DNA of 24,418 nucleotides from a virus (Duplodnaviria; Caudoviricetes): positions 1 to 24,418 of IMG/VR virus record IMGVR_UViG_3300017913_000109, one strand, 5' to 3'. Position 1 is the first letter of the stretch. Each line of letters starts with the position of its first letter. The notes beneath the pieces were generated by a model. That model saw only the letters and a list, made by a program, of their open reading frames with translations, did not search any database and was not told where the DNA came from. The position numbers were made by a program, and so were the translations under genes. Positions 1 to 22,756 of the stretch are shown piece after piece.

Positions 1-408
1 ATCAATGTAGGCGTTCATAGCGTCCTCTGCCGTGCCTTTATATGCGCGTATATCGCCCTCAGACCATGCCGCACCCCACTTGATAGATGCACCAACCTCT
101 TTAGCAGCCGCAGCCATAGCATCGCAGATGTCATCGTAAACGTTAATTTCCCAACATACATCCCCATCCACATACGCTAAACAGTCTACGGCATGTGAGT
201 ATTCGTCAGATTGCGGTATATGCTTGCTGTTCATAGTTTGTGACCGACCAGTAGCAACCAAGCGTTTCTGTTCCTCTACAGTGCGCAGGCCGCATGTAAT
301 CCCAAAGTCTACCTTGGTCAGTTCAATAGCGCGTTTGACTGTGGCAACCATATCTGGGTGGACACCTTCTAATTTGCCCAAACTACGGTTTGATAATTTG
401 AAGCTCAT
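1..408 (-). CDS. Endolysin, M15-family (T5 Lys-like L-alanyl-D-glutamate) peptidase; 3' end runs off the window
   Basis: Not in the ORF track. Manual translation from ATG at 408 (ATGA overlap with the 405..794 stop): MSFKLSNRSLGKLEGVHPDMVATVKRAIELTKVDFGITCGLRTVEEQKRLVATGRSQTMNSKHIPQSDEYSHAVD...IKWGAAW. The GLRT..EQ, SKH...AVD and WG..W motifs are typical of M15 phage endolysins. Confidence 0.88.
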   Translation of the reverse strand, partial: MSFKLSNRSLGKLEGVHPDMVATVKRAIELTKVDFGITCGLRTVEEQKRLVATGRSQTMNSKHIPQSDEYSHAVDCLAYVDGDVCWEINVYDDICDAMAAAAKEVGASIKWGAAWSEGDIRAYKGTAEDAMNAYID

Positions 409-794
409 CTCTTTCCTCCGAAAAACTTAGTAGCAGAACGCACGGCAAAGCTCGCTGATACGATTACACCCAAAGTGTATTGATACCACTCAGGCATCAC
501 TTCCAACGCTGCAAACCCCTCTGCAACGACTGTGCGACCCCATTCCCCTGTGAACACCAAAATTAAGGGTATTGAGAACAAAATTACGAGATATTCGTCT
601 TTCCAACTGGACTGAGAACCTTGCGCCATAATGCGCTCCCAATCAGCAACAGATGTTTCTTTGGAAAGCATAATTTTGGCTTTGGCTTCTGCCTCTGTCA
701 GCTTCAGCTTGGCTTCCGCAGCTTGCTTGTCTGCCTTGCCTTTTAACCAGCCACCCGCAAGTTCAGTCAGTGGCCCTATAAGTGCTTGTATCAT
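405..794 (-). CDS. Holin-like membrane protein (resembles the GTA/3TM holin type)
   Basis: SSWKDEY followed by a hydrophobic helix, then MPEWYQYTLGVIVSASFAVR and a basic C-terminus. Directly upstream of the endolysin. Confidence 0.7.
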   Translation of the reverse strand: MIQALIGPLTELAGGWLKGKADKQAAEAKLKLTEAEAKAKIMLSKETSVADWERIMAQGSQSSWKDEYLVILFSIPLILVFTGEWGRTVVAEGFAALEVMPEWYQYTLGVIVSASFAVRSATKFFGGKR

Positions 795-14163: not shown

Positions 14164-14183
14164 TAAGCATTACTCCCTCTCAA

Positions 14184-19486: not shown

Positions 19487-19626
19487 TATTTCTTAGCCTT
19501 CTTTTTTGCTTTCTTTGCTACCGACATTGCAATTGCTTTTGCTTGTGCTGGCGATTTACCCGCTTTTATCTCGCGGCGTATGTTTTCAGCAATGCTTTTC
19601 TTTGAGTAGCCTTGAATAAGTGGCAT
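19486..19626 (-). CDS. Lys-rich microprotein, 46 aa
   Basis: Manual translation MPLIQGYSKKSIAENIRREIKAGKSPAQAKAIAMSVAKKAKKKAKK; SD AAGGT; TAATG overlap with the next gene. Confidence 0.8.
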   Translation of the reverse strand: MPLIQGYSKKSIAENIRREIKAGKSPAQAKAIAMSVAKKAKKKAKK

Positions 19627-19628
19627 GA

Positions 19629-19733
19629 CTAACCTTTAGCTAAACACTTACCAGCCATTGCGCACTTGCTTGGTGTTGGGCAACCCTTGCACGGCTTAAA
19701 ACCCGCTGCTGCTGCTGACTTTCCAGTTCTCAT
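19629..19733 (-). CDS. Cys4 microprotein, 34 aa
   Basis: Manual translation MRTGKSAAAAGFKPCKGCPTPSKCAMAGKCLAKG; ATGA overlap with the upstream ORF. Confidence 0.7.
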   Translation of the reverse strand: MRTGKSAAAAGFKPCKGCPTPSKCAMAGKCLAKG

Positions 19734-19783
19734 TTCTTTTTCCCGCCTTTTTTCTTCATCGTAGATTTTTTACCGTAACCCAT
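19730..19783 (-). CDS. Lys-rich micropeptide, 17 aa
   Basis: Manual translation MGYGKKSTMKKKGGKKK (alternative ATG at 19786); stop/start overlaps on both sides. Confidence 0.6.
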   Translation of the reverse strand: MGYGKKSTMKKKGGKKK

Positions 19784-19908
19784 CATTTTTTCCTTTTCTT
19801 GACTTTAACGCAGCGATCCTTGCCGCCTTTGGTTCCAGCATAACGATAGCCCTTCCAGCAAGCCTTGCCGTCAGCACCTTTTTTCTTTGTAGTGGTTTTT
19901 CTAGCCAT
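19783..19908 (-). CDS. Lys-rich microprotein with a CWKGY motif, 41 aa
   Basis: Manual translation MARKTTTKKKGADGKACWKGYRYAGTKGGKDRCVKVKKRKK. Confidence 0.75.
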   Translation of the reverse strand: MARKTTTKKKGADGKACWKGYRYAGTKGGKDRCVKVKKRKK

Positions 19909-19912
19909 GAAA

Positions 19913-19941
19913 CGCCCTATTGTTAGGGCGACTTTAGCATA
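19913..19941 (-). promoter_or_regulatory. Hairpin over the ribosome-binding site plus a candidate -10 element
   Basis: Minus strand TATGCTAAAGT-CGCCCTA-ACAA-TAGGGCG-TTTC-ATG. Confidence 0.45.
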
Positions 19942-21201
19942 TTACGCAATCCCGCGCAAATTCCTTCTAATAGGCTCTCCCCATTCAGCCGCAGGCTTAT
20001 ATCCGACAGCTAAATAACGGAACGCATCGGCACCGTGGGAAGTCCAATCATGCAACGGTCTGCCACGCCAAGTTTTCAGTCTTTCGTCATAATCCCTGCG
20101 GTATTGTCTAAGTGCCTCAATACCTCTGGTGCATTTGCCTTCATCAAACCAACAGCGTGGGATCATGCTACGCGCAGCCTGTATGCCATCCTCTACCGCT
20201 AGTTTCGGCGCAATCTCAATGTTCCGTATGCCCAGCGCGTCAAGCGTTTCAAGCCTGCTTTTCCCTGTTCCCAGTTCCTTGACTTGGACATCATGCGGCA
20301 AAATGTGTTGCTCGTATTGGTAGTCTTTGTCCAAGAGAACTTTTGCATAGTGATCTAACCCTACTCCGCTGTTTTCGTAATAATCTATAATCCTAACCTC
20401 ACGGCCTACGAACTGGGCGAACCAAATTGCGGTGCTGTCGCCTATTCCTAAGTCCCATGCAGTGATGACAGATGCCGCACGATCATATGGCACCTTGGTG
20501 ATGCGCCCTTGCTCAGTCGCTTCTTTCATTTCCCTTGAAAAGAACGCCCCAACAATTGCCGCTTCAAAACTACACTCAAATTCTTGCAAGTAGCGGTCAT
20601 CCCCCATTGTCCGTCTTGCTTCATCAAGTTCCTCTTGATCCAGTATTGATGTTTCAGATGCTTTGAACATTTCGGCATACCAGTTTGGATCGTTTTGTGC
20701 TTCATGCCAGATTTCCCAGAAATCGTTTTTGCCTTTGGGTGTTCCAATGAATGTTGCCTTACCTTTGCGATCCGTAAGTGCGGGGCGAATAACTGTGGGC
20801 CACGCTGATGCAGGGAAGTCGGCAGGCTCATCCAATACGACAGCATCAAAGAACAAGCCGCGCATGGCATCGTAGTTATCTGCACCAAATAGACGTATTC
20901 GCGCACCGTTAGGGAAATCTATTCTTAGCTCAGAGGCATTGACCTCTATACCAGGTATAACGGCTGTGAACTCTTTGAGGTAATCCCATGCAATTGCTTT
21001 GGCCTGTCGGTAATATGGAGCGATGTAAGCTACGCGAACATTCTTGCGCTGAATTGTAAGAGCATCCCGAATAAGGTCATTGATCGCTGCTACTGTTTTA
21101 CCGAAGCGTCTATGAGCAACGAGGCAAGCAAAGCGTTCTTTCCTGTTATGGAAGTCTTGTAAATGCGCTCTTGGCTTATAGGGGATTTCTATGACTGCCA
21201 T
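19942..21201 (-). CDS. terL: Terminase large subunit
   Basis: Walker A HRRFGKT, Walker B VVLDE, motif III GTPKG, nuclease motifs WDLG..D and HDWTSHGADAFRY. Confidence 0.95.
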   Translation of the reverse strand: MAVIEIPYKPRAHLQDFHNRKERFACLVAHRRFGKTVAAINDLIRDALTIQRKNVRVAYIAPYYRQAKAIAWDYLKEFTAVIPGIEVNASELRIDFPNGARIRLFGADNYDAMRGLFFDAVVLDEPADFPASAWPTVIRPALTDRKGKATFIGTPKGKNDFWEIWHEAQNDPNWYAEMFKASETSILDQEELDEARRTMGDDRYLQEFECSFEAAIVGAFFSREMKEATEQGRITKVPYDRAASVITAWDLGIGDSTAIWFAQFVGREVRIIDYYENSGVGLDHYAKVLLDKDYQYEQHILPHDVQVKELGTGKSRLETLDALGIRNIEIAPKLAVEDGIQAARSMIPRCWFDEGKCTRGIEALRQYRRDYDERLKTWRGRPLHDWTSHGADAFRYLAVGYKPAAEWGEPIRRNLRGIA

Positions 21202-21569
21202 TTTACAACTAAATCGCTGTCGTCTTTACCCACATGCTCTTGCACTTGCTTTTCTCTCCAATCATCAGGAAAGCGGTTTTTCATTTGGAAGATCATCAGC
21301 GTTGGATTTGGCGTTACCCCTTCAGGGTTCATTCCTAGTGCTGCGGTTCTCAATGCATTCTCCCAGAAACCTTGCGCATAATCCGTTGCCTTTTTTATAG
21401 CGTCGGAAAATTCAGGCTTTGTTTTTTTCCAATCATACAAGGTATCTTTGTGAATATCTAGCTCAAAAGCTATCTGAGTGATGCTAAGTCCTTGTTTTCC
21501 AAGGTCTATTACCTGATCGCAGAAACTTTCATCATACTTAGATGGTCTGCCTACTGGTTTCTTTTCCAT
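21189..21569 (-). CDS. terS: Terminase small subunit
   Basis: GRPSKY start, HTH (SITQIAFELDIHKDTLYDW), MKNRF..DWR motif; overlaps the terL start. Confidence 0.85.
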   Translation of the reverse strand: MEKKPVGRPSKYDESFCDQVIDLGKQGLSITQIAFELDIHKDTLYDWKKTKPEFSDAIKKATDYAQGFWENALRTAALGMNPEGVTPNPTLMIFQMKNRFPDDWREKQVQEHVGKDDSDLVVKWQS

Positions 21570-21626
21570 AAATCCGTCCTTAACAGGGTGCGTCTATATA
21601 TTGTGTATAATAGTTTATTGGCCACT

Positions 21627-21731
21627 AAAATGAAAGACCCCCCGAACATACCCGCGTTCAGGGGGTCAGTGAAGGAGAGCCTTGTGTATGGAGCACATAC
21701 GACCAACAGGGAGGGAGAAGGGTCGGCTCTT
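21627..21731 (-). ncRNA. Putative stand-alone sRNA (~105 nt): three-way junction with an anti-SD loop, plus intrinsic terminator
   Basis: AGAGCC[GACC-CUUCUCCCUCCCUGUU-GGUC][GUAUG-UGCUC-CAUAC]ACAA-GGCUCU-CCUUCACU-GACCCCC.GAAC..GUUC.GGGGGUC-UUUCAUUUU; a -10 element lies 7 nt upstream. Confidence 0.6.
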
Positions 21732-21737
21732 GCTACG

Positions 21738-21754
21738 AAGGTATCATAATTTTG
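21738..21754 (-). promoter_or_regulatory. Candidate promoter for the sRNA
   Basis: Minus strand CAAAAT-TA-TGA-TACCTT (overlapping TATGAT), immediately after the upstream terminator. Confidence 0.5.
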
Positions 21755-21759
21755 CGCAT

Positions 21760-21796
21760 AAAAAAACCCTCACAGGAGCAACCTAAACTGCAAGGG
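21760..21796 (-). terminator. Intrinsic terminator after the 96-aa gene
   Basis: CCCUUGCAG-(12-nt loop)-CUGUGAGGG followed by U7; the G-U pairs form only on the minus strand. Confidence 0.8.
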
Positions 21797-21841
21797 CTTT
21801 TATTATCCAGCGAACCGAAGGAGACCAATCCCTCGGAGCTT

Positions 21842-22132
21842 CTACACTTTAGCCGTTCTGAGGTTTGTCGTCAACTTCCTTACGTTATACGGCCCTCGCG
21901 TCCCACGAAATATGATTTCATCTACTGGGCCTGATGCGCCACGCCTTTCTTGTAATGATATTTTGGCCTGAACTTGCTCAACGCTAATATCCTCACCATC
22001 ACTTACACCATCGGGTGGCCCCCACTTTTCTATTTCTTTAGCCAACGCTTGCAACTTCTTTTCATGCTCACGCGCTACATCTAGGTCTTTGACCTCTATG
22101 TCTGCAACAATGATAGCTCTTAGTTTTGCCAT
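21842..22132 (-). CDS. Hypothetical protein, 96 aa (moron-like)
   Basis: Start reassigned to ATG 22132 (SD GGAG, 8-nt spacer): MAKLRAIIVADIEV...ERRG...IFRG. Confidence 0.75.
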   Translation of the reverse strand: MAKLRAIIVADIEVKDLDVAREHEKKLQALAKEIEKWGPPDGVSDGEDISVEQVQAKISLQERRGASGPVDEIIFRGTRGPYNVRKLTTNLRTAKV

Positions 22133-22163
22133 TTTAGTAACTCCATAATTAACTAATACATTC

Positions 22164-22192
22164 ACGGTATTATTTATAAAATGATTTGTAAA
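22164..22192 (-). promoter_or_regulatory. Sigma70-like promoter for the 96-aa gene
   Basis: TTTACA-N17-TACCGT in a very AT-rich stretch. Confidence 0.5.
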
Positions 22193-22193
22193 T

Positions 22194-22232
22194 AAAAAAA
22201 ATACCCCCTGCGGAGCGATCACGCGAGGGGGC
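22194..22232 (-). terminator. Intrinsic terminator ending the replication operon
   Basis: GCCCCCU-CGCG-UGAUCGCUC-CGC-AGGGGGU followed by A and U8. Confidence 0.8.
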
Positions 22233-22249
22233 AGTTCAGTGAGGCAAAC

Positions 22250-22756
22250 CTATGATATAGGTGGGTCAACCCTATCAGGGATATTGTTTGCTGACAAGTA
22301 TTCTAAATATGGCTGTAGATGCGCGTCTGTTATCAAACCCATCTGCACCATCTTATCTGCCAACTTACCGCGTATATACATCTCACCCACTGGCTCCCCT
22401 GCAATGATACGCTTTGCGTTTAGTGCCAAAGTGTCAGGCTTCCACGGCCCCTTGCTTGCTGGCATAGAAGCGCGTTGCGTATTCATAGACTTTGTTACGG
22501 CTGCGGCTATGTCTGCTGCGCTAGGCCAAGAACGTGACTTGTGCGCCTCTTTCAGTTTCAGCATCGCCCGATCCATTGTGCCACGAATATGATCCTCTGT
22601 CGTGTCATTAGGAAACTTCTGATTTAGCATACGCACAATGTTACGCGCTTCGTCTTCTTCTTTTGCGCGTGTATTTAGGTGCTTTGGAGTAGCGTAGCCT
22701 TCAAATATCTTTATTAGCTCGCTTAGAATAACTCTAACTCTTTCTTCGTGTGTCAT
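22250..22756 (-). CDS. Hypothetical protein, possible helicase loader/inhibitor (lambda P position)
   Basis: 168 aa, ATGA-coupled to the initiator. The WPSAADI motif resembles the FP..A.I motif of phage loader proteins; function inferred from position. Confidence 0.55.
   Translation of the reverse strand: MTHEERVRVILSELIKIFEGYATPKHLNTRAKEEDEARNIVRMLNQKFPNDTTEDHIRGTMDRAMLKLKEAHKSRSWPSAADIAAAVTKSMNTQRASMPASKGPWKPDTLALNAKRIIAGEPVGEMYIRGKLADKMVQMGLITDAHLQPYLEYLSANNIPDRVDPPIS

What the first reader, a model, noticed from the sequence alone, without database searches (positions are those of the whole stretch)
21627..21754. Stand-alone phage sRNA candidate: three-way junction displaying CUUCUCCCUCCC
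Seen on the minus strand: a -10 element ending 7 nt before helix P1 (AGAGCC/GGCUCU), which encloses P2 (GACC/GGUC, loop CUUCUCCCUCCCUGUU) and P3 (GUAUG/CAUAC, loop UGCUC). A CCUUCACU linker and a strong terminator follow, and there is no credible ORF. Established: alphaproteobacterial sRNAs of the AbcR and cuckoo/CcsR types use CU-rich anti-SD loops to block ribosome binding. Inference: a phage-encoded translational repressor of host or phage mRNAs. Its CUCCCUC is complementary to the nozzle SD GAGGGAG (14173-14179), but 7 nt of SD complementarity is weak evidence.
Basis: partly seen in the sequence, partly recalled or inferred. Interest (0 to 1): 0.75.

Follow-up and report, generated by a model that had tools for sequence, protein, structure and literature searches.

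The report
Marine phage anti-Shine-Dalgarno small RNA
Just before its DNA-packaging genes, this uncultured, likely marine phage carries a conserved stretch that encodes no conserved protein and likely makes a ~100-base RNA, whose CCUCCC loop is predicted to cover ribosome-binding sites on messenger RNAs, likely the host's, as known bacterial regulatory RNAs do.

Summary
The element is real. It is an extended -10 promoter, a folded 5' domain (z -2.35 alone) and an intrinsic terminator, lying between a second terminator and the small terminase gene. The same RNA (family A) follows 35 of 48 relatives of the upstream gene. It survives gene swaps on both sides and shows compensatory stem changes. 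Across the clade this slot holds diverged cassettes that keep CUCCC in a 5' hairpin loop (75 of 93). One lineage has the cassette inverted, which argues against a leader of the late genes. Where upstream mRNA can read through, bases before the predicted start mask the seed (33 of 34); insulated copies, this one included, lack the mask (0 of 33). Best reading: a trans-acting anti-Shine-Dalgarno sRNA working like alphaR8/SuhB, AbcR or cuckoo RNAs, but a member of none (all below Rfam cut-offs). The nozzle target is not conserved (1 of 10 genomes), and the three-way junction is family-specific. No transcript, host or target is shown. The scan noted similar RNAs on other phage DNA, not this sequence.

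The parts
21738..21748 (-). Extended -10 promoter candidate TATG-A-TACCTT (TRTGnTAnnnT); no -35 consensus, that position falls in the upstream U-run
   Evidence: TRTGnTAnnnT in 32 of 32 family A, 9/12 C, 9/9 D, 2/2 E, 3/3 F, 10/10 G, 0/16 B (B has TGnTAnnnT and a TTGCAA -35), on loci chosen by the terS leader; inferred, not mapped
21627..21731 (-). Predicted small RNA, ~100-105 nt, start inferred at A21731 (7th base after the -10)
   Evidence: Purine at +7 in 40 of 48 and at +8 in 46 of 48 distinct promoters; fold
21676..21730 (-). 5' domain: P1 (AGAGCC/GGCUCU) closing P2 and P3
   Evidence: 98.4% of cells paired over 24 sequences; stem variants tallied in 26 RNAs; P1 wholly replaced but kept in L125
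21705..21720 (-). P2 loop with anti-SD seed; CCUCCCUG at 21714-21707
   Evidence: Unpaired probability 0.99; CU tract free of purines in 25 of 26 family A RNAs; CCTCCC occurs only 1-2 times per genome in 6 clade genomes
21686..21700 (-). P3 hairpin carrying GCUCCA, a second possible pairing site for GGAG
   Evidence: GCUCCA in 26 of 26 family A RNAs; role inferred
21668..21675 (-). CU-rich linker CCUUCACU; its ACU end is shared across families
21627..21667 (-). Intrinsic terminator, 13-bp stem and U tail
   Evidence: 100% of cells paired, 2 pairs changed on both sides
21760..21797 (-). Upstream terminator closing the inserted 96-aa gene; would insulate the RNA gene from read-through
   Evidence: Sequence; matched only as a generic terminator
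21574..21612 (-). Separate terS promoter candidate (TATTAT 21612-21607) and highly conserved leader ATATAGACGCACCC-N-GGACGG
   Evidence: Leader pattern found in 96 viral loci and 81 metagenome loci, a few of them chance
21189..21569 (-). Terminase small subunit, downstream neighbour
   Evidence: phrog_309, E 3.9e-39
21842..22192 (-). Inserted unit: TTTACA-17-TACCGT promoter candidate plus 96-aa ORF (22132-21842) of no known family
   Evidence: 29 of 35 family A loci have no insert here; 6 carry this or another insert; no PHROG or Pfam hit
22195..22309 (-). End of the 168-aa gene and its terminator; likely a decayed older copy of the cassette (CCCACC in place of the seed)
   Evidence: Second-best window hit of model R1, E 0.34; resemblance to families C and G by eye; weak

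Best explanation
The stretch is a conserved promoter-hairpin-terminator cassette that likely makes a free ~100-nt RNA, whose exposed CCUCCC(U) loop is predicted to pair with GGGAG/GGAGG ribosome-binding sites and would block translation of several mRNAs, likely the host's. Shown: the anatomy, its conservation, the independence from neighbouring genes, and the seed held in a predicted 5' hairpin loop across diverged families. Inferred: transcription by host sigma-70 polymerase from the extended -10; Hfq help; repression by SD occlusion, as for SisA/alphaR8 and AbcR; transporter or receptor mRNAs as probable targets, by analogy only. In lineages where the upstream early mRNA can run through the cassette, its extra 5' bases are predicted to hide the seed, so only the short RNA would be active. 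In family A a terminator insulates the cassette and the mask is absent.
For: (1) Family A follows 35 of 48 relatives of the 168-aa gene; 9 more have family D, 1 has L125-type, 3 have none directly after. (2) It is kept with four different downstream genes and with or without upstream inserts. (3) RNA identity to the window is 77-91%, against 47-87% at four-fold codon sites of the neighbour gene, and higher in all 20 pairs. (4) Stem changes in 26 family A RNAs: P2 A-U>G-C (4) and C-G>U-A (1); P3 G-C>A-U (2) and two rescued U-A pairs; wobble changes. Terminator covariation. (5) Among 93 distinct slots chosen by the terS leader, CCTCCC is in A 30/32, C 6/12, D 9/9, E 2/2, F 3/3, G 10/10 and 4 of 9 others; background is 1-2 per genome. 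(6) The seed is unpaired (mean >=0.82) in A, C-G, L125, L358, L359 from the predicted start. (7) Model R1 links A to L125 (E 1e-9), D (6e-7), F (5e-5), E (1e-4) and L265 (6e-4). (8) L265/L333 carry the cassette inverted relative to terS. (9) Masking in 33 of 34 read-through copies and 0 of 33 insulated ones; randomising the 6 bases before the start gives p 0.007-0.046 in each of 7 lineages. (10) L221 and L359 loops contain the alphaR8 10-mer; 3 of 6 family G loops contain AbcR aSD1 (PMC12559287, PMC8844928).
Against: No transcript evidence. No target is shown, and no phage start region recurs as a top partner in 6 genomes. On the MAFFT alignment, changes on both sides appear only in the terminator; P1 is nearly invariant within family A, and 3 of 26 RNAs break the first P2 pair. 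Family B (16 of 93 slots) lacks CCUCCC, L335 has the layout without the seed, and L005 has no cassette. R1 scores C, G and B only weakly (E 0.01-0.9), and part of every R1 score comes from promoter and terminator. GGAGG is depleted on both strands, so it is no proof of self-avoidance. Start regions with GGAGG/GGGAG are not rarer than in three control phages (10/198 vs 9/114, p 0.33). The lineages are related, so the 7/7 vs 0/3 contrast (p 0.008) overstates independence, and it depends on inferred start sites. The host and its Hfq are unknown.
Confidence: 0.58

Rival explanations
1. Attenuated leader of the late operon, like lambda pR'-6S RNA-tR' (recalled): the short RNA is a by-product and antitermination lets polymerase into terS.
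For: Position between replication genes and terS, in the same direction in most lineages; promoter followed by a terminator.
Against: Cassette inverted in L265/L333. terS has its own conserved -10 and leader. Extra promoter-terminator units sit between cassette and terS in L249/L257. No Q-like gene among 36 early ORFs scanned in G001/G002, and the 168-aa gene leans to helicase loaders (a lead only). The terminator stays formed in the read-through folds printed.
Confidence: 0.11
2. Decoy or sponge: the loop titrates a host G/A-rich RNA (CrfA-like sponge of alphaR8) or Hfq rather than covering mRNA ribosome sites.
For: CrfA pairs with the alphaR8 10-mer (PMC12559287 passages); phage sponge RNAs and Hfq competitors exist (AgvB, AsxR, VpdS; PMC12197685). 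SuhB reaches the cut-off in 62 of 151 sampled genomes of the class of an Aureimonas genome.
Against: The only near-invariant core is the anti-SD pentamer, with variable flanks, which fits many SD targets better than one sponge. No sponge partner was looked for.
Confidence: 0.12
3. Timer of the phage's own genes (nozzle, endolysin) by SD occlusion.
For: Nozzle start ranks 1 of 33 in the window and 2 of 54 in G004; the endolysin keeps a GGAGG SD in the window and G002 although GGAGG is rare.
Against: GAGGGAG before the nozzle in 1 of 10 genomes and GGGAG in 2 of 10; the best partners differ between genomes; 8% of random 45-nt windows pair at -14 kcal/mol or better.
Confidence: 0.1
4. DNA-level site (packaging or protein-binding box CCTCCC) flanked by ordinary terminators, with no functional RNA.
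For: Next to terS; CCTCC/GGAGG is depleted on both strands of all 6 genomes.
Against: Compensatory stem changes, constant loop placement, purine at the predicted start, fold-dependent masking; inversion in L265; CCTCC lost while CUCCC is kept in L059, half of family C and L265.
Confidence: 0.06
5. Small protein gene, type I antitoxin, or phi29-like packaging RNA (recalled).
For: A plus-strand 21-aa frame has an SD-like AAGGAG; three-way junction beside terS.
Against: Indels of 1-3 nt between P2 and P3 break every frame; the peptide is hydrophilic; the junction is absent from families B-G; no conserved loop-loop complement was seen by eye.
Confidence: 0.03

Closest known systems
alphaR8 / SuhB family (MmgR, SisA-D; Rfam RF00519; PMC12559287)
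   Same: Short RNA with intrinsic terminator and CCUCCCU anti-SD core; the full 10-mer is in L221 and L359, 8 of 10 in the window. By eye, the order GGGCG ... CCUCCCU ... ACU ... GCC-terminator of six real SuhB genes recurs in families D and F.
   Different: In the six SuhB genes the seed follows a weak 5' hairpin (open in most folds); here it is inside the loop of the 5' stem. No SuhB hit in the window; best cassette hit 11.4 bits against cut-off 41. Phage-borne.
AbcR1/2 (alphaR15, Rfam RF02345; PMC8844928)
   Same: [quoted passage not shown]
   Different: No ar15 match in 5 phage genomes at E<=10; family A has CUCCCUCCC; no LsrB context was tested.
Cuckoo / CcsR / NfeR1 (ar14, RF02344; PMC4615179)
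   Same: CU loop on a stem whose sequence changes freely.
   Different: One seed loop, not 2-4 hairpins each with CCUCCUCCC; that 9-mer is in none of the 78 RNAs checked; best ar14 scores 18-19 bits against 58.8.
Burkholderia anti-hemB (RF02837) and toxic small RNAs (RF02278; PMC5688073, PMC4603805)
   Same: Hairpin plus terminator with CU-rich loops complementary to ribosome sites; the anti-hemB consensus loop UUCUCCUCCCUG is one base from the window's loop.
   Different: Best scores 11-18 bits against 49.5, and the window hit is on the decayed copy; no RF02278 match in 5 genomes; betaproteobacterial chromosomes.
Phage trans-acting sRNAs StxS, PreS, VpdS, AgvB (PMC12197685)
   Same: Phage-encoded RNAs acting on host transcripts.
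   Different: Those are from temperate phages of E. coli and Vibrio; the parts read list none with a generic anti-SD seed or from alphaproteobacterial phages.

Membership tests
alphaR8/SuhB (RF00519) | Score at or above the Rfam cut-off (41 bits) | tested here: not met
   No hit in the window; 11.4 bits on family D; the same model passes in 62 of 151 bacterial genomes
alphaR8/SuhB (RF00519) | 10-mer UUUCCUCCCU | tested here: not met
   8 of 10 in the window; 10 of 10 only in L221 and L359
alphaR8/SuhB (RF00519) | Seed single-stranded downstream of a weak hairpin | tested here: not met
   Seed lies in the apical loop of the 5' stem
alphaR8/SuhB (RF00519) | Intrinsic terminator | tested here: met
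alphaR8/SuhB (RF00519) | Hfq association and target repression | not testable with these tools
   Needs co-IP and reporters
AbcR/alphaR15 (RF02345) | Rfam score >= 40 bits | tested here: not met
   0 of 5 genomes at E<=10
AbcR/alphaR15 (RF02345) | aSD1 CUCCUCCC in the 5' hairpin loop | tested here: not met
   Absent from 26 of 26 family A RNAs; present in 3 of 6 family G
Cuckoo/ar14 (RF02344) | 2-4 adjacent hairpins each with CCUCCUCCC | tested here: not met
   One seed loop; 9-mer in 0 of 78 RNAs
anti-hemB (RF02837) / toxic sRNA (RF02278) | Rfam cut-offs 49.5 and 50 bits | tested here: not met
Lambdoid pR'-tR' late leader | Q-type antiterminator gene upstream | tested here: inconclusive
   None among 32 window ORFs and 36 ORFs of G001/G002; many ORFs have no family
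Lambdoid pR'-tR' late leader | Fixed orientation towards the late genes | tested here: not met
   Inverted in L265/L333
Trans-acting anti-SD sRNA (functional class) | Discrete transcript with its own start and end | tested here: inconclusive
   Promoter and terminator conserved; no raw RNA reads were available
Trans-acting anti-SD sRNA (functional class) | Conserved, exposed anti-SD seed | tested here: met
   (exposure is predicted)

The most novel reading that the evidence does not exclude
An abundant clade of marine alphaproteobacterial phages captured a host alphaR8/SuhB-like seed and rebuilt it into its own family of anti-SD small RNAs that silence host mRNAs (for example receptors and transporters). 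The seed has a start-site safety catch: it is locked in the long early mRNA by bases lying between the -10 and the start, and free only in the short RNA. The lock was lost at least twice, when a terminator or an inversion removed read-through.
Probability: 0.28. Interest if true: 0.8.

Novelty: new variant of a known kind. Interest (0 to 1): 0.6.

Why it matters
Characterised phage trans-acting sRNAs come mostly from temperate phages of enteric bacteria and Vibrio (PMC12197685, parts read). A clade-wide RNA gene that displays the same seed as the widespread alphaproteobacterial regulators would mean that these phages tap into the host's nutrient-uptake regulation with RNA alone. The element is about 100 nt and can be tested in Caulobacter or Sinorhizobium with existing SisA/AbcR reporters, without the unknown host. 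The predicted masking by start-site choice would be a neat way to switch a seed off in a read-through mRNA.

Tried and rejected
Rfam at gathering scores: nothing in the window; E-value scans gave only generic terminator matches. No DNA match among isolated phages; one weak terminase match for a family G stretch. Seed-structure pattern in GTDB genomes: 14 of 14 hits lacked P1 and terminator. No prophage form: the 168-aa gene gave 2 trivial hits, TerL 2 distant ones, and the terS leader 8 hits, none in phage context. Model R1 found nothing in 3 genomes, in 109 genomes of the family of a MAG titled Rhodobacterales, and one chance-level hit (E 0.39, unlike the RNA) in 151 genomes of the class of an Aureimonas genome; only 24-150 candidates per genome were scored. 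Expression: three public runs, contigs only, share of words 0.05-0.07. A 256-nt contig of a relative without the insert reaches into the element in one rRNA-depleted seawater run, but contigs cannot show start, strand or level, and DNA may be present; this is no evidence either way. An alternative hairpin (GCCGAC/GUUGGU) has probability 0 in the window. My first pair count misplaced P3 by one column, redone. RNAalifold on the mixed-family MAFFT alignment recovered only the terminator. CsrA-type GGA loops on the plus strand were considered and dropped: the U tail points to the minus strand. Selective host shut-off with phage immunity was not supported against control phages. Cluster names gave no host. 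Three control phages have no such cassette by pattern or model.

Full report
Setting. The window is a whole 24.4-kb virus record, 70% complete. Its genes lie on the minus strand: methylase, replication initiator, a 168-aa gene, a 96-aa gene, terS, terL, virion genes and endolysin. The closest isolates are distant. TerL is about 50% identical to pelagiphages and to Methylophilales and Rhodoferax phages. The capsid protein is 34-46% identical to uncultured spring phages and to phages of Sinorhizobium, Pelagibacter, Rhizobium, Bradyrhizobium, Octadecabacter, Methylophilales and Microcystis. Homologues carry Tara and uvMED labels, so the habitat is likely marine. GANTC is nearly absent from six clade genomes (0-5 against 58-90 expected) but not from three control phages. 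GANTC is the alphaproteobacterial CcrM site, and about half of pelagiphages deplete it (PMC9516812, passages). This points to an alphaproteobacterial host without proving it. No prophage form was found, and no integrase or Q family among the ORFs scanned.

Observation. The 5' domain folds better than 98% of shuffles even without the terminator. A second terminator lies upstream (21797-21760), so the unit is bracketed. Overlapping frames are not conserved. Rfam has no match at cut-off.

Family A. Relatives were collected by anchors independent of the RNA: terS, the terS leader and the 168-aa gene. Two further scans used RNA motifs. Family A follows 35 of the 48 relatives of the 168-aa gene, 29 directly after its terminator and 6 after an insert like the window's 96-aa gene. 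Nine have family D, one the L125 type, and three have other genes next. Downstream, four different genes occur. Identity to the window RNA is 77-91%, above the four-fold codon sites of the neighbour gene in 20 of 20 pairs. On 24 sequences 98.4% of cells pair, and 0 of 500 shuffles reach that; changes on both sides were counted only in the terminator, because that count left out the first P2 and the outer P3 pair and MAFFT placed gaps unevenly there. A direct tally of 26 distinct RNAs shows for P2: AACC/GGUU 11, GACC/GGUU 4, GACC/GGUC 4, AGCC/GGUU 3, AACU/AGUU 1, first pair broken 3. For P3 it shows: GUGUA/UACAC 16, wobble variants 4, AUGUA/UACAU 2, rescued U-A pairs 2, shifted register 2 (the window is one). 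The CU tract has no purine in 25 of 26, and GCUCCA is in 26 of 26. P1 is almost invariant in family A, which says little; in L125 it is replaced by GUGGGC/GCCCAC.

The wider slot. One search examined 93 distinct 150-nt stretches upstream of the terS leader, after dropping 27 loci judged chance matches and those with under 190 nt upstream. They fall into A (32), B (16), C (12), D (9), E (2), F (3), G (10) and 9 others. CCTCCC is in 30, 0, 6, 9, 2, 3, 10 and 4; CTCCC is in all of A and C-G. Of the 5 others without it, two have a family G cassette further upstream, one has the cassette inverted, one has the layout without the seed, and one has none. That gives 75 of 93 with a CUCCC cassette. CCTCCC occurs once or twice per genome in total. 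From the 7th base after the -10, each seed-bearing type folds as a 5' stem with the seed in its loop, then a linker ending in ACU, then a terminator. The stems differ widely in sequence. Purines dominate at +7 and +8 (40 and 46 of 48), as expected for a start site. A model built from family A finds L125, D, F, E and L265 at E 1e-9 to 6e-4, and C, G and B only weakly. Common ancestry of the latter rests on position, seed and linker. The three-way junction is thus a feature of family A (L125 folds similarly); the conserved thing is a looped-out seed.

Free RNA or leader. terS has its own -10 candidate and conserved leader. Other promoter-terminator units can sit between cassette and terS (L249, L257). 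In L265/L333 the cassette points away from terS. The 168-aa gene has no family; its nearest named look-alikes are helicase loaders, a lead only. These points favour a free RNA over a lambda-type attenuated leader (lambda arrangement recalled).

Masking. In C, D, E, F, G, L358 and L359 no terminator-like U-run lies in the 40 bases before the -10; for C the upstream ORF was seen to end just before it. There the bases between the -10 and the predicted start are complementary to the 3' side of the loop, with different letters in each lineage. Adding 30 upstream bases lowers the unpaired probability of the seed from >=0.92 to <=0.65 in 33 of 34 distinct copies. In 33 insulated copies (31 A, L125, inverted L265) it stays >=0.75. 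Family B, L335, L005, L249 and L257 were left out. Randomising those 6 bases gives p 0.007-0.046 in each of 7 lineages (combined 2e-6); the lineage table 7/7 vs 0/3 gives p 0.008, but A and L125 are close kin. All this is folding prediction on inferred starts. If the true starts were 4-6 nt earlier, these RNAs would instead be two-state folds. Either way it suggests selection on the seed's availability as RNA. The window's copy is of the unmasked type.

Targets. The nozzle SD match is real but not conserved: GAGGGAG in 1 of 10 genomes where the start was found, of 13 tried. The endolysin has GGAGG in the window and G002, and top partners differ between genomes. GGAGG is rare in coding sequence (1-6 against 20-35 expected), but CCTCC is too (0-1 against 3-7), and control phages show milder depletion. 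Restriction-site avoidance explains this as well as self-protection does. Seed-matching start regions are 5% in the clade, 8% in control phages (p 0.33) and 14% in stretches of five unnamed bacterial genomes (p 0.002) that need not be hosts. So no target is identified; host mRNAs are preferred by exclusion and analogy.

Known systems. alphaR8 RNAs share the 10-mer UUUCCUCCCU, single-stranded after a weak hairpin, and SisA represses many mRNAs, including a TonB-dependent receptor, by direct pairing (PMC12559287, passages). AbcR1/2 carry CUCCUCCC in the 5' hairpin loop and silence transporter mRNAs (PMC8844928, passages). Cuckoo RNAs have 2-4 hairpins with CCUCCUCCC (PMC4615179, passages). Burkholderia double-hairpin RNAs have CU-rich loops over ribosome sites and slow growth (PMC5688073, PMC4603805, passages). 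The phage seeds overlap all of these, and two match the alphaR8 10-mer exactly, but every Rfam test fails. It works like them and is a member of none. Six real SuhB genes show GGGCG, seed, ACU and terminator in the same order as families D and F; capture from the host is possible but not shown. No host homologue of family A was found in the 263 genome searches made.

In print. Searches listed no description of this RNA. Of the phage sRNA review PMC12197685 I read part 1 of 6 and passages; it has no occurrence of 'alphaproteo' or 'terminase'. A survey of IMG/VR predicted 8,495 anonymous structured RNAs (PMC10690425, passages); six supplementary files gave no hit for the seed, the leader or two dataset numbers, and three were not searched, so an unnamed model may exist. 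Earlier notes of this scan report similar anti-SD RNAs on other phages, none on this sequence; I did not check them.

Verdict. A real, conserved, probably transcribed phage RNA gene of a known functional kind, in a new setting and with a predicted start-dependent mask in sister lineages. Real RNA gene about 0.85; acts in trans through the seed about 0.75; by covering ribosome sites of mainly host mRNAs 0.58. Interest 0.6.

Noticed in passing
window 21574-21612 (-): The terS leader ATATAGACGCACCC-N-GGACGG is more widely conserved than terS itself, occurs once per genome in 4 of 5 genomes tested (a different variant in G001), and may form a small bulged hairpin; possible packaging or translation-control site.
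   Followed up: partly
window 21760-22192 (-); L116, L249, L257: The terminator U-runs in this region are an insertion hot spot: a 96-aa gene with its own promoter and terminator, and in relatives non-coding promoter-terminator units that may be further small RNAs.
   Followed up: partly
window 22195-22309 (-): The 168-aa gene is about 11 codons longer than in family D phages and runs into what looks like a decayed older cassette, suggesting duplication and replacement.
   Followed up: partly
window 1-24418 and G001-G005: Strong site avoidance: GANTC and GGWCC across the clade, GTAC absent from the window (0 against 60 expected) but much less depleted in most relatives, CCGG-containing words rare, CCTCC/GGAGG on both strands.
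   Followed up: partly
L008 1403-1479; L335 654-749: Family B and L335 keep the promoter-hairpin-terminator layout with other loops (UACCCUC or GCUCCCUU; none), so the seed can be swapped.
   Followed up: no
window 19487-19941 (-): The 450-nt gap between terL and the 259-aa gene holds several short lysine-rich frames (about 30-45 aa) below the ORF cut-off used.
   Followed up: no
L282 5813-7089: terL of G002 appears in two frames (149 and 287 aa); frameshift or assembly error.
   Followed up: no
L279 9125-10414: In G001 and several family A phages a ParB-methyltransferase fusion gene replaces terS directly after the RNA and starts inside a variant of the conserved leader.
   Followed up: no
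window 408-435 (-): The endolysin start region has one of only three coding-strand GGAGG in the window, also kept in G002.
   Followed up: partly
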